In this document: piece by piece, positions 7,091 through 43,948 of the stretch
Layout: each line of letters starts with the position of its first letter
Numbering within the stretch: the first letter of the stretch is position 1
Virus record (IMG/VR): IMGVR_UViG_3300023270_000001
Location: 4,140 to 68,139 of that record
Length of the DNA stretch: 64,000 nt
Strand: one strand, 5' to 3'
Source: a virus
The notes under the pieces: model-generated
The model's database searches: none
What the model was told of the DNA's origin: nothing
What the model saw: the letters and a program-made list of their open reading frames with translations, nothing else
Translations under genes and position numbers: made by a program

Positions 7091-7107
7091 GCCAGCATCA
7101 TATCAGG

Positions 7108-7821: not shown

Positions 7822-7830
7822 CTGCCGATG

Positions 7831-8898: not shown

Positions 8899-8901
8899 TG
8901 G

Positions 8902-9312: not shown

Positions 9313-9422
9313 CGGTTTCTCCGTGAGAGTGGTGGTGCAGCCCCAGCCATTGGAACGCTGGGGTATTCTAAATTAACGGCGTCGGCGCGCTCAGCGTGCC
9401 CAGCCAGGTAGAGGGTGGCGGG

Positions 9423-9641: not shown

Positions 9642-9804
9642 GCCGCATGGTCGCGCGGAACCGTGGGTAGGTCAACGCCTTCGATCTGCATTGCCCGTCT
9701 CGGCGAACCCGGGAACACTGCCGAATGTTCCGTCTCGGGGTCAAATCGTACCGAGCTACGCTCGAGGTCAGTTCTAGTCTCAGTCCGAGCGCACTGAGAA
9801 GCGT

Positions 9805-27212: not shown

Positions 27213-27830
27213 TTGCCCACCAACCCGAATAGCGCCCGCCTCGCCCCGCTCGTCCCCCAGTCGGGGATGGGCTATGGGGGGGCGCGTCTATTCTGGCTCC
27301 CGGACCAGGCGCCGACGTCGCGCATCGGGTACGCGGGCGCGCCGCAGACCATCGACGTCATGCGGCGCGCCGTGCTGGGCGACGCGGACCACTTCGAGAC
27401 GCGGCAACTCGCCGAGATCGTCTGCGAGTGGCTCGACAGCAAGGACTACACGTCCGAGTACCTGGCGCTGTACCAGTTCCTGCTGCAGCGCACGCGGTAC
27501 ATGCGCGACCCGCGTCGCACCGAGCTCGTGCGCGCCCCACACCTGATCAGCAAGCAGATCATGGCCGGTCACCGGCCGTCGCTCGATTGCGACGACATGG
27601 CGTGCTGGCTGGCAGCTGCGGTAATCGCGGTCGGTGGTCGCGCCGACTTCGCGACCGTCGCGTTTCAGCGGATGTTCTTCCAGGGGCAGCCGCAGTATTC
27701 CCACGTGTTCACGCGCGCCCTCGAGCCGCGAACCGGCACGCACATCGTGCTCGACCCCGTGGCGGCAGAGAAGACCCCGCAGATGCTCTCTCGCGTCAAG
27801 GCCGGGGCGACCTGGCCGGTGGCGGCCTAA
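27213..27830 (+). CDS. Transglutaminase-fold Cys-His-Asp enzyme, candidate maturation protease
   Basis: LDCDDMA (Cys), YSHVF (His), VLDP (Asp); alternative start ATG 27267. Confidence 0.75.
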   Translation: MPTNPNSARLAPLVPQSGMGYGGARLFWLPDQAPTSRIGYAGAPQTIDVMRRAVLGDADHFETRQLAEIVCEWLDSKDYTSEYLALYQFLLQRTRYMRDPRRTELVRAPHLISKQIMAGHRPSLDCDDMACWLAAAVIAVGGRADFATVAFQRMFFQGQPQYSHVFTRALEPRTGTHIVLDPVAAEKTPQMLSRVKAGATWPVAA

Positions 27831-27841: not shown

Positions 27842-29557
27842 ATGGCATACAACCTACCACCACCATGGTCCTCGGGGTACGCGATCCCGGACAACGTCGA
27901 CGACGAGGGCCTCGAGCGTCGAGCCTTTATCACCAAGCAGATGCCGCGCGGCACCTACGATGACCCGCGCGTCGGAAACGGCGGTTTCGCCGTGCCGCAG
28001 TACATCGACGATGAAGGGTACGGGCAGGGCACGTTCACCACGAAGTGGCAGCCGTCCGGATCGTACTCCGGTCCCAAGGTCCCGGTGTGGCTGAACCAGC
28101 GCCCGAAGCTCGTCGCGGCTCGCCCGCTGCCGGGCGGCGGCCGTCAGGTCACGGTGCAGCCGCTGAGCGGCGACGAGCCGCTGCCGCCCGCGGTGGAGAG
28201 TTACGGTGCCAAGGCGGCCCAGGCAATCCTGGCGCAGGTCTCTACGCTGCCGCGCGCGCAGCAGGAGACCGCGCTCCGCGGGATCATGGGCCGCATCGAC
28301 AAGTCGCTGTACGACCGGACGCAGGACATCTTCCGACGCTACCTCGCGCAGGGCGTATCCCCCGCGGACGCCTTGCCACTGGCAATCGCGCGCGCGATGG
28401 CCGCTGGCGTGACGGCAGAGATCGTCACCAAGGGCGCTCGGCGCGTCGCACCCCAGGCTAACTCGTCCCTGGGCCTGGGGTGCTACATGCGTTCACCAGG
28501 GGCGATGGGCGACACGGCAGCACCGGCCAAGCCGGCCCTCAACTGCCTGCCGCCCGCGGGGTACAACTGGGTCGATGACGGGAAGGGCGGCTATCTCGTA
28601 CGTGTGCGCGCGGGCGTGGCCCCGAATCCGATGCCATGCAAGGCCGATGGGACACCGTGGACCGTCACCAGCAGTACCGGCGCGCCGGGCGGCATCTCGA
28701 CGGGGGCGTTGCCGCCGGGCACGTTCTCGATCGGTGGAATCAACTTCCAGAGCCCGACCGAGAGCGCAGGATCCGCGCAGCCACTGCGAACCAGGAAGCC
28801 CGATTTCATGGCCCGTGACCTTCGCACGCTCACGGCGGAGCAGGTGAAGTTCATCGGGGACATCCTGTTGGACAAGCCGGATTCTCCGCTGAAGGACCTC
28901 GAGTATCGACATACGTTCCGTCCTGAGGAGTTGGCCGTGCTTGCGAGAGCGGGGATATTCCCCGATACCAAGGTGAATTCCCTCGCGAGGAGGAACCTCT
29001 TCGCCCCTGGAACTGCCGTCGCGTACCTCCAGGACCCAAACAATGGGAGCAACCTGCAGTTGCACATGTTGTTCTGGCCTCTCGATCCCGACAAGGACTG
29101 GGCCGCGGACAACCCGCAAACGCTACGCGTGTGGCTGTCCAAGGTCCCCGACGTCAGCACGTGGGGTTCGATCGTCAAGACAGCATTCAAGATTCCAGGG
29201 GTGCTCATCAAGATCGCTGACCCGCTCGGCATTGGGCAGGCAATCTCCCAGAAGGTTGGAAGCGCCATTGCGGACGGCGTTCGCAAGGTCGGCGAGCTCA
29301 CGTGCGATCTCGTGTCGACGCCAGGCGTTGGGGCCGCAGCCGGGGCTGTCGCTGGTGCATATGTGGGAAATCCGGCTGCAGGCGCGGCGGCTGGCAATGC
29401 TGGTGCTGGCGCGGCTGCGCGGGCGTGCAACGGCGCTCCGCCGCCACCGCCGCCGCCCCCAGTCGTAGCTCATAAATCAGTGCTACCGCTGGTGCTGATT
29501 GCTGGCGGCGGCGTGCTAGCAGTGGCCCTCCTGACCAAGAAAAAGAAGAAGTCATGA
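27842..29557 (+). CDS. Large tail-anchored virion membrane protein
   Basis: MAY start; internal AMGD; C-terminal TM plus KKKKKS. Confidence 0.7.
   Translation: MAYNLPPPWSSGYAIPDNVDDEGLERRAFITKQMPRGTYDDPRVGNGGFAVPQYIDDEGYGQGTFTTKWQPSGSYSGPKVPVWLNQRPKLVAARPLPGGGRQVTVQPLSGDEPLPPAVESYGAKAAQAILAQVSTLPRAQQETALRGIMGRIDKSLYDRTQDIFRRYLAQGVSPADALPLAIARAMAAGVTAEIVTKGARRVAPQANSSLGLGCYMRSPGAMGDTAAPAKPALNCLPPAGYNWVDDGKGGYLVRVRAGVAPNPMPCKADGTPWTVTSSTGAPGGISTGALPPGTFSIGGINFQSPTESAGSAQPLRTRKPDFMARDLRTLTAEQVKFIGDILLDKPDSPLKDLEYRHTFRPEELAVLARAGIFPDTKVNSLARRNLFAPGTAVAYLQDPNNGSNLQLHMLFWPLDPDKDWAADNPQTLRVWLSKVPDVSTWGSIVKTAFKIPGVLIKIADPLGIGQAISQKVGSAIADGVRKVGELTCDLVSTPGVGAAAGAVAGAYVGNPAAGAAAGNAGAGAAARACNGAPPPPPPPPVVAHKSVLPLVLIAGGGVLAVALLTKKKKKS
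28373..28385. repeat. Palindrome TTGCCACTGGCAA, copy 6 (coding)
   Basis: Exact match. Confidence 0.9.
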
Positions 29558-30027
29558 GCGAGACATCAATGGAATCGCGCGAGCTCCTGACCGCCATCGG
29601 CGTCGGGAACTTCAACGCCACGGGCATCATCCCGTACATGATGGTCGCTCCGGCCACCACGGACCCCAAGGCCAGCCAGATCATCATCCTCGTCCAGCAG
29701 ATCCAGCGCGCTCTCTGGAAACTGGGGGCGACGGACGTGCTCGTGAGCGGGCGGCTCGACGAGGCGACGGAGCGTGCTCTCGAGCAGGTCGCTGGGCCGA
29801 ACTGGGAGCGGATGTCCTGGGGTGCCAACGTGAAGGCGCTGATCGATGCGGAGCGTAAGGGCTTCCGCATCCAGCCGACCGTGGAGATGGCCTACCAGCC
29901 GATGACGTTCCCGGTTGCGGTCGAGGGGCCGCTCGACTTCCTGCCCGAAGTCCCGGGCGGCATCGTCACCTACGGGATCGGAGCCTACATCCTCTACCGC
30001 ATGCTCTCGAAGCGGAGGTCTCGATGA
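29554..30027 (+). CDS. Tail-anchored protein with PG-binding-like domain
   Basis: IQRALWKLG...VSGRLDEATERAL; TM plus KRRSR. Confidence 0.65.
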   Translation: MSETSMESRELLTAIGVGNFNATGIIPYMMVAPATTDPKASQIIILVQQIQRALWKLGATDVLVSGRLDEATERALEQVAGPNWERMSWGANVKALIDAERKGFRIQPTVEMAYQPMTFPVAVEGPLDFLPEVPGGIVTYGIGAYILYRMLSKRRSR

Positions 30028-30656
30028 CGTACCTCGCACATCGCTCCGCGGTCGGCGACGACAACGGCGGCCTCGCGGACCTGCTCAAGGCCCTAGGGCC
30101 GTTCTCGGCCGTCGAACCGGACCCGTCGGATAACGTGAACCAGACCGCCAACGGCGGCTCGACCACGTCGGCCGCGGACTTCGTGACGGTGAACGGCGTG
30201 TGCAAGCCGATGAACTTCCCCGCCCTCAAGGTGGTTCAGGAGTTCCAGCGGCAACTCAACCGTGTTGCCCAGGCCAAGGGGTTCGGCAAGATCGTCGTGG
30301 ACGGTTCGGTCGGCCCGGCGACGCTGGCGCTGTTTCGCCGCGTGCAGGCTGCGTCCGCCGGCTCGGTGATGGGTGACCCGTCGACCTGCATGGGCGTCGC
30401 GCCCGACGTCGATGTTCTGGCGGCCCAGGTGCGGGCGATGGCCGACGCGCTGAGCGTGCCGGCGACGGTCTCGGGGCCGCTCGCGGTCTCGGTGCCCACC
30501 ATCCAGACCAAGAGCGGCAAGACGATCGTGGCGCCGGACGCGGGCGTCATGGCGTCGCTGGCCGCGCTCTCCGGTATCGAAAAGCTCGCGCTGCTCGGTG
30601 TGGCCGGTGGCATCGGCTACCTGCTCATGAACAAGCGCAAGCGAGGGAGGAAGTAA
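30024..30656 (+). CDS. Tail-anchored protein with PG-binding-like domain
   Basis: MTY...AVGD leader; FQRQLN...VVDGSVGPAT; TM plus KRKRGRK. Confidence 0.7.
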   Translation: MTYLAHRSAVGDDNGGLADLLKALGPFSAVEPDPSDNVNQTANGGSTTSAADFVTVNGVCKPMNFPALKVVQEFQRQLNRVAQAKGFGKIVVDGSVGPATLALFRRVQAASAGSVMGDPSTCMGVAPDVDVLAAQVRAMADALSVPATVSGPLAVSVPTIQTKSGKTIVAPDAGVMASLAALSGIEKLALLGVAGGIGYLLMNKRKRGRK

Positions 30657-30944
30657 ATGCGGTACCGACGATACAAGACGCGCGGGGGCGGCATCGTGGT
30701 CGCGCCGGTCGGGATCAACGGCCTCGGCGCCGACGCGGCACCCGAGCCATTTAGCTTGCGCCGCGCCGTGACCAGCGAGCCGGTCAAGACGGCCTCCGCG
30801 ATCGCGCTCACCTACCACGGGTACCGCCGGACGGGTTCGATCATCTGGGCGCTCATCTACGGGCTCGCTGGGCGCCTCGTGCCAGTGGCCGCAGTGCCGA
30901 TCTCCATCGCGCAGGGCTTCGGCCAGAAGAAGGGTTGCCCATGA
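30657..30944 (+). CDS. Small membrane protein
   Basis: MRY...GLGA leader; hydrophobic segments. Confidence 0.65.
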   Translation: MRYRRYKTRGGGIVVAPVGINGLGADAAPEPFSLRRAVTSEPVKTASAIALTYHGYRRTGSIIWALIYGLAGRLVPVAAVPISIAQGFGQKKGCP

Positions 30945-31288
30945 AGTTCGCGTATCAACGTGGTGGTGGCTCCATCATCAACTGGAAAACCGGCATCCCG
31001 CGCCAGACCCGCGCGGCCGATGCGACCGCGCTCGGATGCTGTGGTCTCGGATCGCTCGAGGGGACGTCGCTCGACGGGTCGACGATCTTGCCGGCGCCCG
31101 GTGCTCCAGAGCCGATCGGCGTGACGCGACAGGCGCCAATGGGCGACTGCAGTTGTCACGGGTCGTGTGGATGCAGCGGCGGTGCGCTGTCCGGCATCGT
31201 CGAGTCGGTGCCGGGTGGCATGGCCACGCTGGCCGTGGTCGGTCTTTTCGTCGCCTGGAAGATGTTCGGAAAGAAGCGGCGCCGGTAG
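30941..31288 (+). CDS. Tail-anchored Cys/Gly-rich protein
   Basis: GLGS and PMGD motifs; TM plus KKRRR. Confidence 0.65.
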   Translation: MKFAYQRGGGSIINWKTGIPRQTRAADATALGCCGLGSLEGTSLDGSTILPAPGAPEPIGVTRQAPMGDCSCHGSCGCSGGALSGIVESVPGGMATLAVVGLFVAWKMFGKKRRR

Positions 31289-31292
31289 AACC

Positions 31293-31604
31293 ATGCGGTA
31301 CTCGGTTTACGACTACACGCGGCGCGCCTACGACTACTACGAGGCGCCAGGCCCCGGCGGAACCCACGCCGGGTCGCCATCGAAGGTGGCACCCGAGCCT
31401 GTGGGGCCTGGACTCGATGGCGACTTTGGGGTGTCGCCGTCGCGTGCGTCGTGGAAACTCCCCGTGGGAGCGACGAAGGTGGGCAGCGGAGAACTACCGC
31501 AGGGGCGCGTCGCGAGCCTCGACGGTTCTGACGAAGCCCTGTCGACGAGTTCATTGCTGTTGTACGCGGCGCTCGGATATCTTGCATGGAAGGTCCTGCG
31601 ATGA
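31293..31604 (+). CDS. Tail-anchored small protein
   Basis: MRYSVYDY start; C-terminal TM. Confidence 0.65.
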   Translation: MRYSVYDYTRRAYDYYEAPGPGGTHAGSPSKVAPEPVGPGLDGDFGVSPSRASWKLPVGATKVGSGELPQGRVASLDGSDEALSTSSLLLYAALGYLAWKVLR

Positions 31605-32326
31605 CGTACACCCGACGAGCGCGCTCGCGCCCACGCAAGGCCGCCGGTCTCGGCGACTGGTGGGACGACTTCATGAACAACCTCAACGCCGATCTCGGCT
31701 TGCCGACGACACGGCCCAGCGACGAGGCGCAATGCATCGCGCTTGCGAATGCCACCTTCGCTCCGATGGATGCCAAAGTGAGCGATCTGTCGGCGAACTG
31801 GAATCCGACTGGGTTCTATACGCCCAACGAGATTCGGACGCAGGTCGCCAACGTCATGGATACGGTGAGGACCGTGCAAGTGGCGATCGACCAAGCGCGA
31901 GCGGAGCCAAATGCATCACAGGACAGCATCATGCGCGCGGTCAACGACCTGGCGCGCGTGGGCGAGCGGTCGCTCGGCTATCTGGCTGCGGCCAACGACG
32001 CCGACAGTAATGGCGTCCGCCTCGTTAACGCGCAGGGCCTCAAGCGCTGGGTGGTTGACTCGCTCGCGACGTGCTCGTCTAGCATGGTGACCGCTGCAGT
32101 CGTCGGTTGCATCGCACCATGGTGGACTGGCAGCCTGGCCACCTTCCAGCGCGCGTTCGACAAAGCATGGTCGACGGCGAAGTTGCTGATCGGCGCGGTG
32201 CTGGCGATCGGTGAGACCGCGGTGCTGGTGGCCAACGACCTCCCCGACCTGTACCGAGTCCTGAAGTACACCGCGCTTGTCGTGGGCGGGTACGTGCTGT
32301 GGGAGCGGTATCTCGCCAAGGACTGA
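31601..32326 (+). CDS. Tail-anchored helical protein
   Basis: MTY...GLGD leader; C-terminal TM. Confidence 0.7.
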   Translation: MTYTRRARSRPRKAAGLGDWWDDFMNNLNADLGLPTTRPSDEAQCIALANATFAPMDAKVSDLSANWNPTGFYTPNEIRTQVANVMDTVRTVQVAIDQARAEPNASQDSIMRAVNDLARVGERSLGYLAAANDADSNGVRLVNAQGLKRWVVDSLATCSSSMVTAAVVGCIAPWWTGSLATFQRAFDKAWSTAKLLIGAVLAIGETAVLVANDLPDLYRVLKYTALVVGGYVLWERYLAKD

Positions 32327-33643: not shown

Positions 33644-35026
33644 ATGTCCGATCAGGTGGGCATCCTCTTCGTCAACGGTAAGCGTCGCGGGCTTCGAGTC
33701 CGCGGCAGAGCGGTGATCAAGAACCCAGCTCGCCGGAAGCGCCGGGCGTCCCCGCGGAAATTGTATCGCATGGGGAGGACCTTGTCTCGGTCGGAGCGAA
33801 GGGCGCATGACGCCGGCGTGACAGCGTACGCCAAGTATCAAAAGGCGCGCCGCGCCAAGAAGGTCAAGGGCCGCCGCAGGCGCCAGCCGTCCGCGCTCGC
33901 GCGGTACCGGAAAGCGCGTCGCGCCGGGAAGAGTTCGTCCAGCACGAAGCGTGGCCGTCGAGCCCGCAGGAGCAAAGCTACTATGGCGAAGCGAAAGAAG
34001 TCATCGAAGCGGTCTCGCGCCATGAAGCGGCGCTGGGCGGCTCGCAAGAAGGCCGGCAAGTCCGGCGCGATCGGTCGCACGCGTCGTCGTCGGCGTTCGC
34101 GCAAGGCGAGCGCCCCGAAGCGCCGTCGTCGTCGGCGTTCGCGCAAGGCGAGCGCCCCGAAGCGCCGTCGTCGTCGGCGTTCGCGCAAGGCGAGCGCCCC
34201 GAAGCGCCGTCGTCGTCGGCGCAAGAGCTCGCGCACGCGTCGCAGTTCGCGCATGCACTCGGTGCACTCCGCGCGCACCGTGCGCATGACCTCGAACCCG
34301 GGGCGCCGCCGTCGTCGGCGGCGTCGGCGTGGGTCCGTGCGGCGCCGCCGCCGTGGCGCGCGGCGCATGCGCCGTGGTGGCCACCGCCGCTACCGCCGCA
34401 ACCCGGGCATGTTCGGGGGGCTGATCGACATCGCCAAGAGCGCCATCCCGGTGTTCGCCGCGCTGTACGGCAGCAAGTTCGTCGTGAGCTCGGTCGCGGC
34501 GCGCGCGACGTTCCTCGGCACGGCCGCCGGCCCGGTGCTGTCTGTCGGCGCGATGGCGCTCGCGAACTGGGGCGCCGGTAAGGTCGCGTTCCTGGCGAAG
34601 CACAAGAACGCCATCCTGCTGGGCACCGGCCTGGGCGCGCTCGAGTCGATCATCCGCACGTTCGCTCCGGCGAGCGTCAAGGGCATGATCGGCCTGTCCG
34701 ACTACGTCCAGATGGGCGACTACATCGCGGTCGGCGCGACGCCCATCAATGACAGCATGACGCTGTCCGACTACATCGCGGTCGGCGATGGCGTCGAGGA
34801 GGAACTCGGCCTCGAGGAGGAACTCGGCGTCGAGGAGGAGCTCGGCGGAACGATGGGCGGCCTCATGGGGGGCGGCGGCAACCTGCTCGCGCCGGTTCCG
34901 ACGCAGTCGTTCCTGGCGCCCGTGCCGGCGAGGTCGTTCACCAAGCAGATCCCGGCCGCCGGTACGAGCTACGACAACCCGGGCCAACTCTACAACGGCA
35001 TCTTCGCCGGCAAGTTCGGCGGCTGA
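33644..35026 (+). CDS. Protamine-like Arg-rich core protein with membrane segment and acidic tail
   Basis: About 250 aa of R/K/S with three NP motifs, hydrophobic middle, EEELG repeats; directly upstream of the capsid genes. Confidence 0.7.
   Translation: MSDQVGILFVNGKRRGLRVRGRAVIKNPARRKRRASPRKLYRMGRTLSRSERRAHDAGVTAYAKYQKARRAKKVKGRRRRQPSALARYRKARRAGKSSSSTKRGRRARRSKATMAKRKKSSKRSRAMKRRWAARKKAGKSGAIGRTRRRRRSRKASAPKRRRRRRSRKASAPKRRRRRRSRKASAPKRRRRRRKSSRTRRSSRMHSVHSARTVRMTSNPGRRRRRRRRRGSVRRRRRGARRMRRGGHRRYRRNPGMFGGLIDIAKSAIPVFAALYGSKFVVSSVAARATFLGTAAGPVLSVGAMALANWGAGKVAFLAKHKNAILLGTGLGALESIIRTFAPASVKGMIGLSDYVQMGDYIAVGATPINDSMTLSDYIAVGDGVEEELGLEEELGVEEELGGTMGGLMGGGGNLLAPVPTQSFLAPVPARSFTKQIPAAGTSYDNPGQLYNGIFAGKFGG
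34082..34221 (+). repeat. Perfect 42-bp tandem repeat, about 3.3 copies (encodes RRRRRSRKASAPKR)
   Basis: Units start at 34082, 34124, 34166, partial at 34208. Confidence 0.9.
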
Positions 35027-35152
35027 TCGCCTGACCCGCGGTTCATCCGCGGACACGACATCTGAGATGCGGCGGGCGACCCCCGCCTGGTGATCGCCGG
35101 AGATTCTTCCGGCCCATCACCGAACCAAACGTACATCAGCAAGGACAAACAG

Positions 35153-35728
35153 ATGCCTCGTCTCCATGGATACCGCGAGCGGCTCCACCAGCCCCTCTGG
35201 GACACCCTCATCCGCACCACGGGTGACCCCACCACGCCGATCGTCAACAGCACGAAGCTGTTCGGCAACGCGAACATCGGCAACCTCGCGCTGACCAACC
35301 TCCAGACCGCCGGCCAGTTGGCGTCGGATCAGACGTACGTGATCCTGGCGATCCGGTGCTTCGAGTATTTCGACGGCACCAACCGCCGCGACAACTACCT
35401 GAACGTCACCAGCCAGTTGTTCTGGACCCTGACCGTCGGCACCAAGCCGATGTTCCAGGCGCCGTGCTGGTACTTCCCGGCCGGTGGTGGCGTGTGGGGC
35501 TTCGACTCTTCGCAGTCGGTGTTCTCGAACGGCACGCCCGAGCAGGCGTCGATCCTGAAGCTGGCCCGCCCGATCATCGTGCCCGTTCGCCAGAACTTCG
35601 CCGCCCAGGCGGACTTCTTCGCGATCGGCACGACCTCGGCGCTCGACCAGCTCAACAGCGGCGCGACCGACGACGTGAAGAACATCATGTTCATGCTCGA
35701 CGGTCTCCAGACCCGCGACGTCCAGTAG
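35153..35728 (+). CDS. Candidate single jelly-roll major capsid protein 1
   Basis: 191 aa beta-rich, very strong codon bias, TNLQTAGQL...FWTLTVGTKP...YFPAGGG...NGTP...IIVPVRQNF pattern; paralog at 7108. Confidence 0.65.
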   Translation: MPRLHGYRERLHQPLWDTLIRTTGDPTTPIVNSTKLFGNANIGNLALTNLQTAGQLASDQTYVILAIRCFEYFDGTNRRDNYLNVTSQLFWTLTVGTKPMFQAPCWYFPAGGGVWGFDSSQSVFSNGTPEQASILKLARPIIVPVRQNFAAQADFFAIGTTSALDQLNSGATDDVKNIMFMLDGLQTRDVQ

Positions 35729-35864
35729 GACGCGCCGCCCGACGGCTCCTGAACAGGTCGCCGGGCACCACAACTGAAGATGCCATCTGAGACGCCTGTC
35801 CTACCGCCGATCTCGCTCGGCGAGCCCGGAATATCCGGGAACCCCACATAAAGGGAGTCCTGAC

Positions 35865-36488
35865 ATGGCACTGTCGCAAGCCGAAGCCGCGATCCTCCGC
35901 AGCCACAAGACCGCGCTGACCACTCTGCAGGCGCAGATCGGTCAGTTGGCCCAGGCGTTCAACCAACTCAACGAGCGCCCGGCCTCGGTCCAGGAAGAGA
36001 TCGATCGGATCCCCGGGCGCCGCATCGAGAGCGTGCTCGCCGGCGAGGTCACCTTCACCGCCTCCGACGAGGGCCAGGCCGGCGCGCCGATCATCATCAC
36101 GGTGTCGCAAGATGGTCCGTTCATCATGACGCACTATCCGATGGCGCTGTGGCGGCCGAGCGCACCGAGTGGCGCCACGAACCTCGGCCGGTGGCGCCCG
36201 GTGTCCACCTTCCCGCTGCCGACGCAGCAGGTCGGCACCGACATCATCGATCTCATGTACGAGATGCAGGACGGCGGCGCGCAGCGCAACATGCAGAACG
36301 CGCCGCGCGGACCGCTGTTCTCGCGGCCAGACAATATCGTGCCGTGTCCGGTCCCGACCATGTGGTCGCCGAACGCGACGATCGTGTTCCGGCCGAACTA
36401 CCTCGCCTTCACCTGGGACAGCACCGTCCCTCCAACCGAGGGCACGTTGCACGTCGATCTCATCGGCTACCGCATCACGAACCTCTAA
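35865..36488 (+). CDS. Candidate single jelly-roll major capsid protein 2 with N-terminal coiled coil
   Basis: ITVSQDGPF...DGGAQRNMQNAP...PVPTMWSPNATIVF...LIGYRI; adjacent to MCP1; AAGGGAG RBS. Confidence 0.6.
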   Translation: MALSQAEAAILRSHKTALTTLQAQIGQLAQAFNQLNERPASVQEEIDRIPGRRIESVLAGEVTFTASDEGQAGAPIIITVSQDGPFIMTHYPMALWRPSAPSGATNLGRWRPVSTFPLPTQQVGTDIIDLMYEMQDGGAQRNMQNAPRGPLFSRPDNIVPCPVPTMWSPNATIVFRPNYLAFTWDSTVPPTEGTLHVDLIGYRITNL

Positions 36489-36492: not shown

Positions 36493-36945
36493 ATGACGTA
36501 CCTGCGCCCCATGGGAGATGACAGTGTCCAGGCCACCGGGCCGGCCGCTGTTTTGGCGCGTCAGGTCAATCGGTTCATGGCCGCAAAGGTGCCGTACCAG
36601 TTCATCACCGCGCCGCTGCCGATCGGCAACCAGGTTACGCCCGAGCTCGCGTTGGCCGCGGTCCTGATCTATCAGCGGAAGGCGACCGACTCGTTCACGC
36701 AGTTCCATGACGAAGGCTCGCGGCTGGCCATCGAAGCGGCGAACATGGCGTTCGCCAACCCGGTCTCGTTCGTGTCGTCTCGCATGGCCGAGATGACGAA
36801 CGCCGTTTCTGGCATGGCCGACTCGCTTGGGCTACCCGCAGCAGCGAGTGACGACCAGATTGTGGGGATGTCGAAGTCGACGCTCCTTTTGATTGCTGGC
36901 GTCGTGGGTGTCGTGTTCCTCATGCGCAAGAGAGGAGGCCGGTGA
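36493..36945 (+). CDS. Tail-anchored protein
   Basis: MTYLRPMGD leader; TM plus RKRGGR. Confidence 0.7.
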   Translation: MTYLRPMGDDSVQATGPAAVLARQVNRFMAAKVPYQFITAPLPIGNQVTPELALAAVLIYQRKATDSFTQFHDEGSRLAIEAANMAFANPVSFVSSRMAEMTNAVSGMADSLGLPAAASDDQIVGMSKSTLLLIAGVVGVVFLMRKRGGR

Positions 36946-36946
36946 T

Positions 36947-37069
36947 TGAAGTCGGCTGAGGTCGCTCGCCGGTGCGAGCGCAATGAGGGCGACGTTTCTG
37001 TCTTCGCGTCGTCACCAAAAATCCCGGGAAGGATGCGATAGCGCGGGCGGGCGACCTCAGCCGACTTCA
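36947..37069. repeat. 123-bp element bounded by perfect 19-bp inverted repeats
   Basis: TGAAGTCGGCTGAGGTCGC at 36947-36965 and its reverse complement at 37051-37069. Confidence 0.85.
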
Positions 37070-37081
37070 CACCAGCACCAA

Positions 37082-37402
37082 ATGACGTATCAACGCAGGA
37101 CATCTCTAGGCGGCATCGGCGACACCATCTCGGCGGCAGCGAACGTCGTCAACGATCCGTACTTCAATGAGGCAGTCTGCCTCGCGGGACAGCTTCGGAG
37201 CGTCGAGCGAGGTGAGCCGGTAATCGCGTGCGCGAAGACCCCGCCAAACCTAGCCGGCGGCGCCGGGCTGCGAAGCCTGATGCCGGCGCTTCGCGGCTAC
37301 GCGTTCGCGCAGCAGAACAAATGGGTGTACCCACTCGCGCTCGCCGCGTTGTTCGGCGTGCCAGCGCTGATCGGGTACGAGCTCGGAAAGAAGCACCGAT
37401 GA
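37082..37402 (+). CDS. Tail-anchored protein
   Basis: MTYQRR...GIGD leader; TM plus KKHR. Confidence 0.7.
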   Translation: MTYQRRTSLGGIGDTISAAANVVNDPYFNEAVCLAGQLRSVERGEPVIACAKTPPNLAGGAGLRSLMPALRGYAFAQQNKWVYPLALAALFGVPALIGYELGKKHR

Positions 37403-37692
37403 AGACCTCCACCGTGCTCATCCTGGGTGGCGCCGCCGTGGCGATCTACTACCTGTCCAAGAAGTCGGCAGCCACCGAGGCCGCCACCTCTGCGCTCACG
37501 GCCGGTGGCACGCAGTCGCCGCCGTTTGCCCCGCAGGTCGTAGTGAACGTGGAGGCGTCGGACATGGACTACGATCCGCCCGCTGGGTGGGGCATGCCGT
37601 GGGGGCCGTCGTGGGGCTCCTATCGCGCTGGTAGGGGGCGGGGCGGTGGCCATGGGGGCGGCCATGGCCACCACGGCCGAGGGAGACGGTAA
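37399..37692 (+). CDS. Small N-terminally anchored membrane protein with Gly/His/Arg tail
   Basis: MKTSTVLILGGAAVAIYYLSKK. Confidence 0.65.
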   Translation: MKTSTVLILGGAAVAIYYLSKKSAATEAATSALTAGGTQSPPFAPQVVVNVEASDMDYDPPAGWGMPWGPSWGSYRAGRGRGGGHGGGHGHHGRGRR

Positions 37693-38456
37693 TGGGGTAC
37701 ACGCGAGATAGCGACCGCGCGACGCGCGGCGTGGGGGCGATCGCCGCTTCCGACATGGTATCGCCGTCGACCCGCTATCGCCGGGTTCAGGTCGGACGCG
37801 CAACCCGCGCGCGAGATCGCCTTATGGCGGCCGTCGCATCGGGAGCACTCGGCGCCATCAATCAGGACACTCCGGATCGTCGTTCGCCGGGCGGCAACCG
37901 CGCACCGGATCGGCGCGCACCGGATCGCGCACCGGATCGTCGTCCAACGCCGGTACCAACCAAACCAGCAACCCCGGTCCCGCTCCCTGGCATGCGAGGC
38001 GTGCGAACACTGCAGCCCGGTGCGTACCACAGTCCGAATTCTCCCCTGCCGCCGCCGGCGGCGATCCCGCCCGGATTCGTTCCGGGCACTAGCGCCCCGC
38101 TCCCACCGGGAGCGATCGTGCGTGACCATCGCGGTACGACGTCTCCCACGACGCCGCCGACGACACCGACAGCCCCAACGGCCCCAACGACACCCACGAC
38201 CCCGGTGCCAACCGGCCCTGGCATCGTGCAGCCTCCGGTGACTGGTGGCGGCGGTGGTGGCGGCGCGGTAACGACTCCCGATGGCGGACGAATCGTCATG
38301 GGTCCCAATGGGCCAATCGTCATTCCGCCCAGCCCGGAGATCCCAGACGCGGACGGCGCCATGATCGCAGGATACCCGATGACCACGGTGCTCCTGGTCG
38401 GCGGCGCCGCCGTCCTGGGGGCCTACCTCCTACTCAAGGATCGGAAGAGCTCATGA
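37692..38456 (+). CDS. Pro/Thr-rich tail-anchored protein
   Basis: MGY...GVGA leader; TM plus KDRKSS. Confidence 0.7.
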   Translation: MGYTRDSDRATRGVGAIAASDMVSPSTRYRRVQVGRATRARDRLMAAVASGALGAINQDTPDRRSPGGNRAPDRRAPDRAPDRRPTPVPTKPATPVPLPGMRGVRTLQPGAYHSPNSPLPPPAAIPPGFVPGTSAPLPPGAIVRDHRGTTSPTTPPTTPTAPTAPTTPTTPVPTGPGIVQPPVTGGGGGGGAVTTPDGGRIVMGPNGPIVIPPSPEIPDADGAMIAGYPMTTVLLVGGAAVLGAYLLLKDRKSS

Positions 38457-38794
38457 GTTATCACCGACGCGGCATGGGCGATCCGGTCACCGCTCCTCAC
38501 GAGGTCGATCCGACGATCTTCGACCCGAACTCGAGCAACCCGCCCATCGACATCACCGGCCCCAAGCGGATCCCGTGCGATCAGTTCCCGGCGGATCACC
38601 CGTTCAAGCGCATCGGCGCTGCTTGCGGCCCGAGCATGCTCGACTGGCTCAAGGATGCGCTCTCGAGCGCAGTGAGCGGCGGGGCGCAAGGCGCGCAGCC
38701 CGAGCCAAAGACCAACTACGTGCCCTACGTCGTCCTCGCGGCCGGCGGCGGCCTCGCTTACTATCTCCTGTCGAAGAAGAAGGGGAAGATCTGA
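38453..38794 (+). CDS. Tail-anchored protein
   Basis: MSYHRRGMGD leader; TM plus KKKGKI. Confidence 0.7.
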   Translation: MSYHRRGMGDPVTAPHEVDPTIFDPNSSNPPIDITGPKRIPCDQFPADHPFKRIGAACGPSMLDWLKDALSSAVSGGAQGAQPEPKTNYVPYVVLAAGGGLAYYLLSKKKGKI

Positions 38795-39198
38795 TGTACA
38801 CCAAGCGCGTCATCCGCAGTAAGAACAAGCGCTCCCTACTCGGGGGCGTCCTCGGGGCGTTCGGCGGGTTCTCGTCGGATGACCAGTGCTCGACGATCCC
38901 CATCGGGGATGGCTACCGGAAGCCGGGGAACTACTGCGCGACCCCGGACGGCGGCATGACGACGTTCAATTCCGACGGGTCGACGTATCGCGCGCCGGGC
39001 GCCGTGGATCCCGATCCGGCGCACCCAGCGGGGATGAGCGCAGGCGGCGGAATCCTGGACGCCATCCTCCGCTTCCTCCCCGGCCAGCAGCCGACCGTGA
39101 TCGCCCCGCAACCTAGCACCGGCCTGTCTACTACTACCGCGATCGCCATCGGTGGCGGTATCATCATGCTCGCGCTCATCCTCAAGAAGCGCGGCTAA
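38794..39198 (+). CDS. Tail-anchored protein
   Basis: MY...basic...VLGA leader; TM plus KKRG. Confidence 0.7.
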   Translation: MYTKRVIRSKNKRSLLGGVLGAFGGFSSDDQCSTIPIGDGYRKPGNYCATPDGGMTTFNSDGSTYRAPGAVDPDPAHPAGMSAGGGILDAILRFLPGQQPTVIAPQPSTGLSTTTAIAIGGGIIMLALILKKRG

Positions 39199-39211
39199 GG
39201 AGACACCACCA

Positions 39212-39475
39212 ATGGCGTACGCGCGAAACAACCTCATCAGCCGATCCGGGTACGCCGGGGTGGGCGACTTCTGGGATGACATCGGGGGCGGGGCAAAGGC
39301 GGTCCTCGACTTCTACAACCGCAGCCAGCAGTCGGCGGGCGCGGCTGCTGCGGCAGCCCAGACCAACCGCGACCTCGCGGCAGCGCTGGCTGCCCAGCAG
39401 GGCGGGATCTCCACCACGACGCTTCTCCTGCTCGGCGTGGCCGGGCTCGGCGCCGTTTTGCTCCTGAAGAAGTAG
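39212..39475 (+). CDS. Tail-anchored protein
   Basis: MAY...GVGD leader; TM plus KK; AAGGAG RBS. Confidence 0.7.
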   Translation: MAYARNNLISRSGYAGVGDFWDDIGGGAKAVLDFYNRSQQSAGAAAAAAQTNRDLAAALAAQQGGISTTTLLLLGVAGLGAVLLLKK

Positions 39476-39485: not shown

Positions 39486-40010
39486 ATGACCAAGAACTCG
39501 CTCTCCATCGACCTCCGCGACCCCCGTGTTCAAGACATGATGGGCGTGAAGCCGGGCTCGCTTGCCAGTGGCAAGGAACGCGAGGTCGTGCGCATTGCCG
39601 GAGACATGGAGACCGGGATCTCGATGACGACCAGCCTCACGGCAGGCAAGCAGGAGGTGGTGGTGGTGTACGGCGACCAGTTCTTGACGGTCGATGTCTA
39701 CGCCATCCCCGGTGAGCCGCTGGTCGCGCACATCATCTGCCCGCGCTGTCGCAAGCAGTCGCGGATCCCTGGTGATCGCAAGGCGATCGACTTCGACCCG
39801 TCGGCGGTTAATCCGATGCGCACGACGATCCTGGCGACGCAGTCGCCGGACCTGATGGCGGCCGGCAGCATCGGGCGTCTCTCGATCGAGCCGTTCGAGT
39901 GCGCGTGGGAGATGGGCGACGACAGGCACGTGGCGGGCGCGCTGCACAGTGGCGTGTCGCTGTGCCGGCTGCGCATCGGAATCACTAACAACCGGGCGAT
40001 GGACGCCTAG
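39486..40010 (+). CDS. Hypothetical protein with CxxC
   Basis: HIICPRC; strong codon bias. Confidence 0.6.
   Translation: MTKNSLSIDLRDPRVQDMMGVKPGSLASGKEREVVRIAGDMETGISMTTSLTAGKQEVVVVYGDQFLTVDVYAIPGEPLVAHIICPRCRKQSRIPGDRKAIDFDPSAVNPMRTTILATQSPDLMAAGSIGRLSIEPFECAWEMGDDRHVAGALHSGVSLCRLRIGITNNRAMDA
39562..39574. repeat. Palindrome TTGCCAGTGGCAA, copy 7 (coding)
   Basis: Exact match. Confidence 0.9.
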
Positions 40011-40021
40011 AGGCGAAAACG

Positions 40022-41683
40022 ATGACGTGGTCTCGGGGCGGCCTGATCAATGAGATGAGCGAGGCGCTCTGGGAGAGCGTATCGCAGACCCGCGGCAAGG
40101 CGCCTGCGCCAGCGCGCAAGGCCGCCGAGGCTCTCGCGCGCCTCTACGAGGAGGTGAACCGCACCGGCCTCGTGGGCATCGCCGATCAACTTCACCGATC
40201 CGCATCGGACCTCCGTCCGTCGGACGTCGGCGAAATCCTGGTGTCCTACGCGATGGGCGCTGGTGGCGAGTGGGACTCGGTGGTGTACGGCGCCGGACTC
40301 CGCGTGCCGACGTTCACGGCCGAGCTCGAGTCCCGCGATGGGGTTCTCGAGTTGACCTGGGACGGCGGCACCGAGGTGCAGAACCCGGCCAAGCGAGACG
40401 TCCCAGCCGCGAACAGCCAGGATCGCATCATCCTGCTCGAGGACGATCCGGTCCTGCAGGCCGGTACCACGAAGATGCTCGGGCGGATCTTCAAGGGCAC
40501 GCCGGTCATCGTCTCCGACAACGTGGACGCGGCGATCGCGAATATCAAGGTCCACATGGTCGGCCTCATCGTGAGCGACGTGGACGTGCTCGGGGACAAG
40601 AGCGGCATCGACCTGTTTCATTGGGTGGAGGAGAACCGACCGGACCTCGTCGACCGGTTTGTGTTCTTCACCGGCAACCCCGCGGCGGAGTTCGAGCACT
40701 ATCGATACCTCGCCAAGGGCGGCGCGCTGGCCAAGGACCTCAAGGAGGTGATCTTCGCCAAGCGGCCCGCGCGCGACACGGATCGGATGTCGAAGCCGAA
40801 GTCGCCTCGCTCGCCCGCGCGTGCGCCGTCGCCCGTGGCCTCGCGGACGGTCAAGCTGTCGCGACCGCCCGACGCAGTGCTGAGCCCGCCGCCTCGCCCC
40901 CGGCCGACCAAGACCGGCGCAACGCGCGCGGATTTGCGAGACATGAGGCGCCACGAGCGCGAAGCAGCCGAGTACGACCGGCTACTCGCCGCGCCAGGGC
41001 CGCATGCGAAGCCCGCCCCGTTGCCGGATCCCGGCGCATTCGCGGCGGACTTCGCCCGCGACTTCGAGGCGGCGTTTCGCCGGATCGACAAGGGCCACAA
41101 CTACGTGCTGCTCTACGACCTGCGCAAGGCGATGCCGCAGTACTCGCACGAGGAGTTCAACGCAGGGGTGAACGACATGCGCCGGCAGAAGGTGTTGAGC
41201 CTCGACAGCGCGGACGGGCGGCACGTGAAGCTGACCGATGAGCAACTCGCCGGTGGCATCTTCGAGGGCGACTCGCGGCTGCAGTACGCGGCATATCGCC
41301 AGCGACTCGGGCATGCGCCGGCTGCGGTTCCAGCGCGGTCGGCGCGACGCGAGATGCCCATCGAGGAGTTCGCCCAGGCGGTCAACGCGGCGGCCGATGG
41401 GATCGGGGACGAGAGCGAGGTCGAGGGCAAGGCGCGCGGCCGGTTCGGGGGCAAGGTGTTCATCGCGGCGATCTGGCGAGACCTCCAGAACGACCCTCGG
41501 TTTGCCTCGATGTCCGTGGAGGAGTTCAAGCGGCGTCTGCTCGAGGCGCATCGCCAGCGTCTGCTCACGATGGCGCGCGCGGATCTCGTCGCCGCGATGG
41601 ACCACAACGAGGTGATCGGGTCGGAGATTCATGATCGCGGTGCCACATTCCACTTCGTGCTCAACGAAAGGGACAGGTGGTGA
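40022..41683 (+). CDS. Multidomain protein with a response-regulator receiver domain and two C-terminal helical domains
   Basis: IILLEDD...LIVSDVDV...SGIDL...FVFFTG receiver pattern. Confidence 0.7.
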   Translation: MTWSRGGLINEMSEALWESVSQTRGKAPAPARKAAEALARLYEEVNRTGLVGIADQLHRSASDLRPSDVGEILVSYAMGAGGEWDSVVYGAGLRVPTFTAELESRDGVLELTWDGGTEVQNPAKRDVPAANSQDRIILLEDDPVLQAGTTKMLGRIFKGTPVIVSDNVDAAIANIKVHMVGLIVSDVDVLGDKSGIDLFHWVEENRPDLVDRFVFFTGNPAAEFEHYRYLAKGGALAKDLKEVIFAKRPARDTDRMSKPKSPRSPARAPSPVASRTVKLSRPPDAVLSPPPRPRPTKTGATRADLRDMRRHEREAAEYDRLLAAPGPHAKPAPLPDPGAFAADFARDFEAAFRRIDKGHNYVLLYDLRKAMPQYSHEEFNAGVNDMRRQKVLSLDSADGRHVKLTDEQLAGGIFEGDSRLQYAAYRQRLGHAPAAVPARSARREMPIEEFAQAVNAAADGIGDESEVEGKARGRFGGKVFIAAIWRDLQNDPRFASMSVEEFKRRLLEAHRQRLLTMARADLVAAMDHNEVIGSEIHDRGATFHFVLNERDRW

Positions 41684-41686: not shown

Positions 41687-42301
41687 GTGACCTACGCCCG
41701 CGCCGTGCAGGCGCTGGGGGCGACCCCCGTCGAGACCGCCGCGCCTGCGCCAGGTAGGCCGCAGCCGCCGATCTACCCGCTCCAGGTCGGCGCGCATGGC
41801 GGATACCTCGAGGTCCGGGCGACGCCTGCGGACGGGTCGTGCGGCGTCGGGCTGTACCCATGCCGTCATCCGGGCGTGGACGTCGCGGGCTTCGCAGGGA
41901 CGACCGTGGTGGCGCCGGAATCCGGGACCGTGGTCGCGACAGCGGACGGCAACAGCGCGCCGTTCGTGGGCTATGGCCCCTGGCTCATCATCATCCAGGG
42001 AGACAGCGGCAAGTTCCACCTCCTGGCGCACCTCGAGCCGCTGACCGCCGCCTATGCGCCCGCGGGCGCTCGAGTCGCCGCCGGCCAGCAGGTCGGCGTG
42101 ACGAGCTCGGCGAACCACACGCACTGGGAGGTGCGTCAGAAGATGGTGCCGGACTTCGCGGCCGGCGAGAGCAACTTCACGAACAACGATGACCCGCTCG
42201 GCTGGCTGGCGCTGGCTGGGATCGGCGTCGGGGCGGTGCTGGTCGTCGGCGGGGCCGCGGTGTTCCTGTGGCTCCTCTATCAGCGGAGGCGACACGTATG
42301 A
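41687..42301 (+). CDS. M23-family peptidase with C-terminal membrane anchor
   Basis: HPGVD (HxxxD), LAHL, NHTHWEV (HxH); MTY...ALGA leader; TM plus RRRHV. Confidence 0.8.
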   Translation: MTYARAVQALGATPVETAAPAPGRPQPPIYPLQVGAHGGYLEVRATPADGSCGVGLYPCRHPGVDVAGFAGTTVVAPESGTVVATADGNSAPFVGYGPWLIIIQGDSGKFHLLAHLEPLTAAYAPAGARVAAGQQVGVTSSANHTHWEVRQKMVPDFAAGESNFTNNDDPLGWLALAGIGVGAVLVVGGAAVFLWLLYQRRRHV

Positions 42302-43179: not shown

Positions 43180-43186
43180 GGATCCC

Positions 43187-43933: not shown

Positions 43934-43948
43934 ACAGGGAGTTCATCT

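What the first reader, a model, noticed from the sequence alone, without database searches (positions are those of the whole stretch)
33644..36488. Unusually large tailless virus with a two-gene single jelly-roll capsid
Seen: two adjacent ~200-aa beta-rich genes with very strong codon bias, preceded by a protamine-like protein and flanked by many membrane proteins; no terminase, portal or tail genes in 64 kb. Known: paired single jelly-roll capsid proteins define the Thermus phage P23-77 / haloarchaeal SH1-type viruses, whose characterised genomes are a few tens of kb or smaller. Inference: this is a much larger, gene-rich, integrase-encoding relative in a GC-rich bacterium. The receiver domain and RiPP leader style hint at Myxococcota, but the host is unverified.
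Basis: partly seen in the sequence, partly recalled or inferred. Interest (0 to 1): 0.8.

Follow-up and report, generated by a model that had tools for sequence, protein, structure and literature searches.

The report
Large tailless virus, jelly-roll capsid genes
A complete, circular 86-kb virus-like genome carries a conserved trio of genes (a protamine-like DNA binder and two jelly-roll proteins) inside a block of membrane proteins, yet has no DNA-packaging motor of any known kind, so it probably represents an undescribed, widespread group of large tailless bacterial viruses.

Summary
Window 33644-36488 encodes a 460-aa Arg/Lys-rich protein followed by two conserved genes of 191 and 207 aa. 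AlphaFold models of both are beta-sandwiches of the jelly-roll type. The best solved matches of the 207-aa protein are the single jelly-roll capsid proteins of SPV1, P23-77, SH1, HHIV-2 and HCIV-1 (Z 5.8-7.7). Those of the 191-aa protein are picorna- and noda-like capsid jelly rolls (Z 6-7). These scores are modest.

The window lies in a complete 86.4-kb circular virus record. Four relatives are also complete circles of 75.6-86.3 kb and share the same structural block. No terminase, portal, HK97 capsid or FtsK-type ATPase was found. There is no canonical Walker A motif in any frame of four of the five genomes.

The link to the P23-77/SH1 group is not supported as membership. The defining ATPase-capsid gene block is absent, profile comparisons with VP16 and VP17 find nothing, and the genome is 3-5 times larger. 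The closest working analogue is SPV1: circular DNA, nucleoprotein core, inner membrane, jelly-roll shell and no packaging ATPase.

Host unknown; cell-wall hydrolases point to bacteria. I found no published description. First-stage readers of this scan noted look-alike capsid genes in three other genomes.

The parts
33644..35026 (+). 460-aa basic protein. The N-terminal half is 46% Arg/Lys with three perfect 14-residue repeats, followed by a ~100-aa Gly/Ala-rich hydrophobic region, acidic EEELG repeats and a conserved C-terminal motif. Candidate DNA-condensing, membrane-tethered core protein.
   Evidence: An orthologue of 460-522 aa lies directly upstream of the first jelly-roll gene in all five complete genomes. 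No Pfam or PHROG hit. The function is inferred.
35027..35152 (+). 126-nt gap upstream of the first jelly-roll gene, with three stable hairpins on the sense strand.
   Evidence: Fold z-score -3.4, with 0 of 200 shuffles folding as well. The downstream gap 35729-35864 is not significant (z -1.2).
35153..35728 (+). SJR-1, 191 aa. The most conserved protein of the family and the candidate major capsid protein.
   Evidence: 668 homologues at E<=0.001. 401 clusters at 50% identity. 64-100% identical across relatives. AF2 model pLDDT 66.6, jelly-roll strands. VIA Z 6-7 to picorna-, noda- and seco-like capsid jelly rolls with 120-139 residues aligned. Foldseek hits are mostly virus capsids, with E 3e-3 and weaker.
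35865..36488 (+). SJR-2, 207 aa. An N-terminal helix (residues 5-36) plus a jelly-roll beta-sandwich (52-205). Candidate second capsid protein.
   Evidence: 528 homologues. AF2 pLDDT 76. VIA scores: SPV1 6oj0 Z 7.4-7.7, P23-77 VP17 5.7-6.3, SH1 6.3, HHIV-2 5.8-6.2, HCIV-1 5.9, PBCV-1 6.4, PRD1 P3 5.0-5.7.
7108..7821 (-). 237-aa paralogue of SJR-1 with shared N- and C-terminal motifs and an internal insertion. Candidate vertex (penton) or third shell protein.
   Evidence: BLASTP 56% identity over the first 57 residues, E 1e-12. 31% identity over the full length in A3. Present in all five genomes but only 29-38% identical.
27213..27830 (+). 205-aa transglutaminase-like (papain-fold) cysteine peptidase. 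The second most conserved gene and a candidate maturation protease.
   Evidence: ESM Atlas features 0.97 with 201-203 shared features, to clusters carrying PF01841 Transglut_core. 43-78% identity in relatives, 100% in the near-identical L010. Pfam itself gave no hit.
25456..27120 (+). 554-aa protein present in all five genomes. Only weak, sub-threshold coiled-coil-type Pfam hits. Scaffold or size-determining role suggested.
   Evidence: Only weak coiled-coil-type Pfam hits. The role is inferred.
27842..32326 (+). Run of structural-block genes, most of them tail-anchored: a 571-aa protein with a C-terminal TM helix, then proteins of 157, 210, 95, 115, 103 and 241 aa.
   Evidence: C-terminal hydrophobic helix plus basic tail. 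Conserved order in relatives.
36493..39475 (+). Second run of small tail-anchored membrane proteins directly after SJR-2.
   Evidence: Partly conserved in relatives.
39486..41683 (+). 174-aa core protein, and a 553-aa protein with a sub-threshold receiver-like domain.
   Evidence: No P-loop motif.
41687..42301 (+). M23 peptidase with a C-terminal membrane anchor. Candidate virion-associated cell-wall hydrolase.
   Evidence: PF01551, E 1.4e-12. TM 169-199.
42298..46777 (+). Two proteins (293 aa and 942 aa, flanking a 239-aa gene) that share a ~200-aa N-terminal domain and differ downstream. The 942-aa protein is Gly-rich. Candidate vertex spikes with a common anchor.
   Evidence: 62% identity over 200 residues. 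The N-terminal domain is found in most relatives, and in L007 and L009 it lies between SJR-1 and SJR-2. The role is inferred.
4660..11112 (-). Second conserved module on the opposite strand. It contains the SJR-1 paralogue, a tail-anchored transglycosylase-like protein (6362-7090), a 169-aa core protein and a 435-aa core protein.
642..1838 (+). Tyrosine integrase. Accessory: absent from one of the five genomes.
   Evidence: PF00589, E 1.9e-13..

Best explanation
The three genes are the centre of the virion module of a tailless, inner-membrane-containing virus of bacteria with a 75-104-kb circular dsDNA genome.

Shown:
- The genome is complete and circular.
- The trio (basic protein, SJR-1, SJR-2) and about a dozen neighbouring genes are the conserved core of the family, while the rest of the genome varies.
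- Both small proteins are predicted jelly-roll beta-sandwiches.
- The block is full of tail-anchored membrane proteins and membrane-anchored cell-wall hydrolases.
- No packaging NTPase, terminase, portal or HK97 capsid gene exists.

Inferred:
- SJR-1 and SJR-2, with the SJR-1 paralogue at the vertices, build an icosahedral shell on a lipid vesicle.
- The Arg-rich protein condenses the circular DNA with its N-terminal half and ties it to the membrane with its hydrophobic half.
- The genome is therefore enclosed by co-assembly rather than pumped into a preformed capsid. This is how the archaeal virus SPV1 is thought to work.
- The transglutaminase-like cysteine peptidase would mature virion proteins.
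- The two proteins with a shared N-terminal domain would be vertex spikes.
For: Genome:
- 32-bp terminal overlap; IMG/VR class 'direct terminal repeats'; CheckV 100%.
- Four relatives are complete DTR genomes of 75.6-86.3 kb.

Conservation:
- SJR-1 is the most conserved gene (64-100% identity), followed by the peptidase and SJR-2.
- Fifteen core genes, all in the two structural modules.
- The basic protein lies directly upstream of SJR-1 in all five genomes.

Folds:
- for the models.
- Model 1 matches capsid jelly rolls at Z 6-7.
- The top solved matches of model 2 are SPV1 (Z 7.4-7.7), then P23-77 VP17, SH1, HHIV-2, HCIV-1, PBCV-1 and PRD1.
- ESM features place SJR-1 nearest, among named clusters, to PM2 P2 and PRD1 P3 capsid domains. 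The score is 0.76-0.77, so this is a lead only.

Membrane proteins and anchored hydrolases.

No packaging motor:
-.
- The motif search does find the P23-77 and PM2 ATPases as positive controls.

SPV1 properties: PMC8459092.
Against: - All structural matches are below Z 8, the range that the tool itself says can reflect a common arrangement only.
- Model 1 has pLDDT of only 66.6.
- The jelly-roll sandwich also occurs in tail-fibre knobs, cement proteins, lectins and glycosidases. Such proteins appear in the same hit lists.
- There is no direct evidence of particles, of lipids, or that these proteins are in a virion.
- No sequence-level link to any known capsid protein.
- The orientation of the barrels and the oligomeric state could not be tested.
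Confidence: 0.6

Rival explanations
1. It is a true but highly derived member of the P23-77/SH1 lineage (Helvetiavirae, now Singelaviria). It would have grown about four-fold and lost or replaced the packaging ATPase.
For: Two adjacent small capsid-like genes. The solved matches of SJR-2 include all structurally known members of that lineage: P23-77 VP17 at Z 5.7-6.3, SH1 6.3, HHIV-2 5.8-6.2, HCIV-1 5.9. The structural block is rich in membrane proteins and has virion-type lytic enzymes, as P23-77 does.
Against: No Walker A ATPase anywhere in four of five complete genomes, and none near the capsid genes in 13 further loci. hhalign probabilities are under 1.2% against VP16 and VP17. SJR-1 does not list these proteins among its top 50 structural matches. 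SPV1, which is not in that lineage, scores higher.
Confidence: 0.12
2. Only SJR-1, with its paralogue, forms the shell. SJR-2 is not a lattice protein but a trimeric spike, cement or membrane-linker protein that oligomerises through its N-terminal helix.
For: SJR-2 has a 32-residue N-terminal helix before the sandwich. Its ESM-Atlas shape matches are small proteins of auto-classified tailed phages (TM 0.51/0.61). Cement proteins (Pam1, KHP40) and a tail-fibre domain are in its hit lists. In L007 and L009 another gene separates SJR-1 and SJR-2. SJR-1 has its own paralogue that could supply a second shell protein.
Against: SJR-2 is among the most conserved genes and is adjacent to SJR-1 in most genomes. 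Its best solved matches are shell proteins that cover nearly the whole chain: SH1 residues 2-164 of 173, and 129 of 178 residues of SPV1.
Confidence: 0.18
3. The element is not a virus. It is a plasmid-like replicon that spreads in membrane vesicles or stays in the cell, and the beta-sandwich proteins are envelope or surface proteins.
For: No hallmark virus gene is recognisable by sequence. Contigs are repeatedly binned with cellular MAGs. There are many membrane proteins.
Against: No conjugation, partition or replication ATPase at all. The conserved core is a structural-looking block while the rest varies, which is the pattern of virus families. Genome size is tightly held at 75-86 kb in five complete circles. 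Endolysin-type and anchored wall hydrolases are present. IMG/VR holds nine relatives as viral genomes.
Confidence: 0.08
4. A tailed phage whose capsid, portal and terminase are too divergent to recognise.
For: Automatic taxonomy labels relatives as Uroviricota. A few phage-type accessory genes are present: GP88, DUF5131 and a beta-helix protein.
Against: Terminase large subunits are ATPases, and no P-loop motif exists in any frame of four complete genomes. Six-frame searches with TerL_ATPase, Terminase_6N, Phage_capsid and Phage_portal are empty. PHROGs finds nothing for any large ORF.
Confidence: 0.02

Closest known systems
Portogloboviridae (Sulfolobus polyhedral virus 1)
   Same: Circular dsDNA. 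A shell of single jelly-roll proteins over an inner membrane. DNA coated by a virus protein into a nucleoprotein core. No packaging ATPase and no polymerases (PMC8459092). It is the best solved structural match of SJR-2, at Z 7.4-7.7 with 129 of 178 residues aligned.
   Different: SPV1 is 20 kb and infects hyperthermophilic archaea. This group is 75-104 kb and carries peptidoglycan hydrolases, which implies bacterial hosts. The core-protein candidate here is a 460-aa Arg-rich protein with a hydrophobic half, which has no counterpart that I know of in SPV1. Sequence homology could not be tested, because the SPV1 record was not in the collection.
Thermus phage P23-77 and haloarchaeal SH1, HHIV-2 and HCIV-1 (Helvetiavirae/Singelaviria)
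   Same: Two adjacent small capsid-type genes. Inner-membrane-type small proteins downstream. Virion-type lytic enzymes. SJR-2 matches VP17, SH1 and HHIV-2 shell proteins at Z 5.7-6.3.
   Different: Those viruses have 16-31-kb genomes and a conserved block of packaging ATPase, small capsid gene and large capsid gene (P23-77 ORF13-VP16-VP17). Here the ATPase is absent, a basic protein takes the upstream place, and no profile similarity is detectable.
Double jelly-roll membrane phages (PRD1, PM2)
   Same: Tailless, with an inner membrane, many small membrane proteins and anchored lytic enzymes. PM2 also has a circular genome. ESM features put SJR-1 nearest to P2 and P3 capsid-domain clusters at 0.76-0.77.
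   Different: Those have one capsid protein with two fused barrels and a packaging ATPase (PM2 P9 was found by the control). hhalign of A3 against PM2 P2 gives 8% probability.

Membership tests
Helvetiavirae / Singelaviria (P23-77, SH1 type) | Two major capsid proteins, each a single jelly roll, encoded side by side | tested here: inconclusive
   Both proteins are predicted to be jelly-roll-like and the genes are adjacent. However, all Z scores are below 8, model 1 has pLDDT 66.6, and a capsid role has not been shown.
Helvetiavirae / Singelaviria (P23-77, SH1 type) | FtsK/HerA-type packaging ATPase in the conserved block with the two capsid genes | tested here: not met
   No GxxxxGK[ST] motif in any frame of G000-G003, and none near the capsid genes in 13 further loci. 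Six-frame FtsK_SpoIIIE search was empty. The control finds P23-77 ORF13.
Helvetiavirae / Singelaviria (P23-77, SH1 type) | Detectable homology of the capsid proteins to VP16/VP17 or VP4/VP7 | tested here: inconclusive
   hhalign probabilities are 0.05-1.1% against P23-77 VP16 and VP17. No PDB profile hit. Structural Z is 5.7-6.3 for SJR-2 only. Only single target sequences were compared, so remote homology is not excluded.
Helvetiavirae / Singelaviria (P23-77, SH1 type) | Barrels stand vertically and form pseudo-hexameric capsomers | not testable with these tools
Portogloboviridae (SPV1) | Circular dsDNA genome without packaging ATPase or polymerases | tested here: met
   No polymerase family hit among 79 proteins scanned in Pfam.
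Portogloboviridae (SPV1) | Shell proteins homologous to VP4 and VP10 | tested here: inconclusive
   Best structural match of SJR-2 is Z 7.4-7.7, rmsd 4.5-4.8, 129 residues, 8-9% identity. Sequence comparison was not possible.
Portogloboviridae (SPV1) | Hosts are hyperthermophilic archaea (Sulfolobales) | tested here: not met
   GH25 muramidase with peptidoglycan-binding domains, an M23 peptidase and a transglycosylase-like protein imply bacterial hosts.
Caudoviricetes (tailed phages) | HK97-fold capsid, portal and large terminase | tested here: not met
   Six-frame Pfam searches were empty. No PHROG hit for any large ORF. No P-loop motif.
Double jelly-roll phages (Tectiviridae, Corticoviridae) | A single capsid protein with two fused jelly rolls, plus a packaging ATPase | tested here: not met
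   The capsid candidates have one barrel each. The ATPase is absent. hhalign of A3 and A2 against PM2 P2 gives 8% and 1%.

The most novel reading that the evidence does not exclude
These genomes represent a new high-rank lineage of bacterial viruses. Features of the proposed lineage:
- 75-104-kb circular dsDNA.
- An icosahedral shell of separate single jelly-roll proteins over a lipid membrane.
- A protamine-like, membrane-tethered core protein.
- No packaging motor, so the genome is enclosed by co-assembly.

This would be the bacterial counterpart of SPV1. It would be a third, independent-looking branch beside the P23-77/SH1 group and the double jelly-roll viruses. It would therefore bear on how jelly-roll capsids of dsDNA viruses arose.
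Probability: 0.35. Interest if true: 0.88.

Novelty: new variant of a known kind. Interest (0 to 1): 0.75.

Why it matters
All characterised dsDNA viruses of bacteria with icosahedral capsids use an ATP-driven packaging motor. The known tailless, membrane-containing ones have genomes of about 10-20 kb in bacteria and up to about 31 kb in archaea.

This group is common in metagenomes: 668 and 528 protein clusters at 90% identity for the two proteins, and 401 clusters at 50% identity for SJR-1 and its paralogues. It has complete circular genomes of 75-86 kb in which almost nothing is recognisable. It has no P-loop ATPase and carries a jelly-roll gene pair next to a protamine-like protein.

If particles are confirmed, three things follow:
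- The size range of tailless phages grows several-fold.
- Motor-less encapsidation, known from the archaeal virus SPV1, is shown to exist in bacteria.
- A new data point is added on the origin of vertical jelly-roll capsids.

It also shows that automatic pipelines label these genomes as tailed phages (Uroviricota), and that MAG binning assigns them to unrelated phyla.

Tried and rejected
Family and sequence searches that found nothing:
- Pfam and PHROGs on the three genes gave no hits.
- PDB sequence-profile searches with A1, A2 and the deeper A3 gave no meaningful hit.
- hhalign of A1, A2, A3 and A4 against P23-77 VP16 and VP17, against PM2 P2, and of A1/A3 against A2: all under 9% probability.
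- DUF7592, seen below threshold on one homologue, is absent from the genome and from the literature. Dead end.

Structure searches:
- Foldseek against PDB, BFVD and AFDB gave only weak rows. The exception is one uncharacterised 290-aa AFDB protein at E 1e-8 and 27% identity, which is a distant family member.

Tools and records not available:
- The SPV1 genome is not in the phage collection.
- The 104-kb relative contig could not be opened to look for flanking host DNA.

Other negatives:
- No tRNA genes in the window.
- The promoter/terminator scan around the genes was uninformative.
- Five literature searches for a described group of this kind found none.
- I first looked at 5021-5821 as the capsid paralogue and rejected it. 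The paralogue is at 7108-7821.
Full report
**1. The observation**

ORFs lie at 33644-35026 (460 aa), 35153-35728 (191 aa) and 35865-36488 (207 aa) on the + strand. The longer ORF that begins at 35090 is not the real gene. All homologues start MPRLHGY at 35153, behind an AAGGA site, and the second gene follows a GGGAG site.

GC3 is 0.91 and 0.89. This is high, but other structural genes share it.

The 460-aa protein is 28% Arg+Lys overall and 46% in its first half. It carries three perfect 42-bp repeats and a second 18-bp repeat that encodes an acidic motif.

Between 27.8 and 42.3 kb, at least 13 small proteins end in a single hydrophobic helix followed by Lys/Arg residues. An M23 peptidase and a transglycosylase-like protein carry the same anchor.

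**2. The replicon**

The window is bases 4140-68139 of a single 86,414-bp contig. The contig has a 32-bp terminal overlap. It is a virus record classed as having direct terminal repeats and as 100% complete.

I called 143 genes, covering 85% of the sequence. Of 79 proteins scanned in Pfam, nine pass a curated cut-off:
- tyrosine integrase
- GH25 muramidase with peptidoglycan-binding domains
- M23 peptidase
- NAD-dependent epimerase
- a SEC-C motif protein
- DUF1643
- a QueD-like PTPS
- GP88
- DUF5131

A few more are sub-threshold: a dual-specificity phosphatase, a glycosyltransferase, a beta-helix protein, a TnpB-like protein and a receiver-like domain.

**3. Relatives**

SJR-1 has 668 homologues and SJR-2 has 528 homologues in the 90%-identity collection. 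Many lie on contigs of 75-104 kb. A profile search of the 50%-identity library found 401 clusters, 118 of them below 1e-10.

Seven contigs in species genomes are all stand-alone pieces. Six are 69-89 kb and one is a 5.6-kb fragment. They were binned into Peribacteria, Actinomycetota, Myxococcota, Gemmatimonadota (twice), Chloroflexota and Alphaproteobacteria MAGs. That spread argues for mis-binning rather than for a host range.

Nine IMG/VR genomes were found. Four that I fetched whole are complete circles of 86.3, 75.6, 78.8 and 83.5 kb, with GC of 63-68%.

Fifteen genes are shared by all five genomes, and all lie in two modules: 4.6-11.1 kb on the - strand and 25-43 kb on the + strand. The rest of the genome varies. 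SJR-1 is the most conserved gene, followed by a 205-aa protein and SJR-2. An Arg/Lys-rich protein of 460-522 aa sits directly upstream of SJR-1 in all five genomes.

**4. Folds**

*SJR-1.* The AF2 model of SJR-1 (pLDDT 66.6) has about eight strands.
- Foldseek lists almost only single jelly-roll virus capsids, but at E 3e-3 and weaker.
- VIA-align gives Z 7.0 to apple latent spherical virus.
- It gives Z 6-6.9 to hepatitis A virus, enteroviruses, dicistroviruses, nodaviruses and nepoviruses, with 120-139 residues aligned.
- The same lists also contain PNGase F, carbohydrate-binding modules and lambda tail-tip domains.

*SJR-2.* The model of SJR-2 (pLDDT 76) has a helix at residues 5-36 and a sandwich at 52-205. 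Its VIA matches are listed below.

| Solved structure | Z | Aligned |
|---|---|---|
| SPV1 shell protein | 7.4 and 7.7 | 129 of 178 residues |
| Orf virus D13 | 7.3 | |
| PBCV-1 capsid protein | 6.4 | |
| P23-77 VP17 | 5.7-6.3 | |
| SH1 | 6.3 | residues 2-164 of 173 |
| HHIV-2 | 5.8-6.2 | |
| HCIV-1 | 5.9 | |
| PRD1 P3 | 5.0-5.7 | |

Unrelated sandwiches such as peptidylglycine monooxygenase and nucleoplasmin score the same.

So both proteins are jelly-roll-type sandwiches. The list for SJR-2 is enriched for shell proteins of membrane-containing prokaryotic dsDNA viruses. No single match exceeds the level that the tool warns can be a common arrangement.

ESM-Atlas features place SJR-1 nearest, among named clusters, to PM2 P2 and PRD1 P3 capsid domains. 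The score is only 0.76-0.77.

**5. No sequence link to known capsids**

Profile searches of the PDB are empty. hhalign against P23-77 VP16 and VP17 and against PM2 P2 stays below 9% probability, even with the deeper alignments A3 and A4. SJR-1 and SJR-2 are not detectably similar to each other.

SJR-1 does have a paralogue at 7108-7821 (237 aa). It shares the end motifs and has an internal insertion. It is present in all five genomes but is much more variable.

**6. No packaging motor**

A six-frame scan for GxxxxGK[ST] finds nothing credible in G000, G001, G002 or G003. A looser GK[ST] scan of G000 also finds nothing credible.

The fifth genome has helicase-, primase- and kinase-like P-loop genes, but these lie 33-42 kb from its capsid genes.

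Thirteen further 5-20-kb capsid neighbourhoods contain none. The same scan finds the P23-77 ORF13 and PM2 P9 ATPases.

Six-frame Pfam searches with TerL_ATPase, Terminase_6N, Phage_capsid, Phage_portal and FtsK_SpoIIIE are empty. PHROGs finds nothing for the large ORFs.

This excludes a tailed phage. It also removes the ATPase that defines the morphogenesis block of both the P23-77/SH1 group and the double jelly-roll phages.

**7. Other parts of the module**

The 205-aa protein at 27213-27830 matches transglutaminase-like cysteine-peptidase clusters at 0.97, with about 200 shared features. It is therefore a candidate maturation protease.

Two proteins, at 42298-43179 and 43949-46777, share a 200-aa N-terminal domain at 62% identity and diverge afterwards. 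In two distant relatives a gene with this domain lies between SJR-1 and SJR-2. I read these proteins as vertex spikes with a common anchor. This is inference only.

**8. Reading**

The best-supported picture is a tailless, inner-membrane virus of bacteria. The bacterial host follows from the peptidoglycan hydrolases. In this picture the shell is made of separate jelly-roll proteins. The circular genome is condensed by the basic protein and enclosed by co-assembly.

The nearest working analogue is SPV1, which has circular DNA, a nucleoprotein core, an inner membrane, jelly-roll shell proteins and no packaging ATPase or polymerase (PMC8459092).

Membership in the P23-77/SH1 lineage fails on the ATPase and is undetectable by sequence. 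It remains possible only as a very remote relationship.

Three rivals remain:
- SJR-2 is a spike or cement protein rather than a lattice protein.
- The element is a vesicle-borne plasmid.
- It is an unrecognisable tailed phage. This last reading is very unlikely.

**9. Novelty and limits**

Five literature searches found no description of such a group. First-stage readers of this scan noted look-alike capsid genes flanked by hairpins in three other genomes. Here the upstream gap folds significantly, at z -3.4.

The capsid assignment therefore rests on moderate-confidence models, conservation and gene context.

Noticed in passing
window 27213-27830 (+): The second most conserved gene of the family looks like a transglutaminase-like (papain-fold) cysteine peptidase by ESM-Atlas features (0.97). 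Pfam itself finds nothing. It is a possible virion maturation protease.
   Followed up: partly
window 42298-43179 and 43949-46777 (+): Two proteins share a ~200-aa N-terminal domain (62% identity) and then diverge. The 942-aa one is Gly-rich. In relatives L007 and L009 a gene with this domain is inserted between the two jelly-roll genes.
   Followed up: partly
window 34082-34221 and 34790-34847: Perfect 42-bp x3.3 tandem repeat encoding an Arg-rich 14-residue unit, and an 18-bp x3.2 repeat encoding an acidic unit. Both lie inside the basic protein gene. The 100% identity suggests recent expansion.
   Followed up: no
window 35027-35152: The 126-nt gap before SJR-1 folds into three hairpins (z -3.4). 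First readers noted similar hairpin-rich gaps around the capsid gene in three other genomes of the scan.
   Followed up: partly
whole genomes G000-G003 (86.4, 86.3, 75.6, 78.8 kb): None of these four complete genomes has a credible Walker A motif in any frame, which is unusual for replicons of this size. The more distant G004 carries helicase-, primase- and kinase-like P-loop genes at 50-57 kb.
   Followed up: yes
L003-L009 (species-genome contigs): Relatives sit in MAGs assigned to Peribacteria, Galbitalea, Myxococcales, Gemmatimonadota, Thermomicrobiales and Kiloniellales. Six are whole 69-89-kb contigs and one is a 5.6-kb fragment. This is likely mis-binning of a free viral genome.
   Followed up: partly
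L001:6499-8460 (genome 74498-76459, outside the window): 653-aa protein with a sub-threshold Cas12f1-like TNB domain (TnpB-like). It is conserved in three of four relatives at 33-38% identity.
   Followed up: no
window 61543-61953 and 60926-61546: A QueD-like PTPS gene (E 6e-29) lies next to an unannotated 206-aa gene. The pair is shared with only one relative.
   Followed up: no
AFDB cluster A0A661MVV1: An uncharacterised 290-aa protein matches the SJR-1 model at E 1e-8 and 27% identity. It is a distant, longer member of the family that might help to root it.
   Followed up: no
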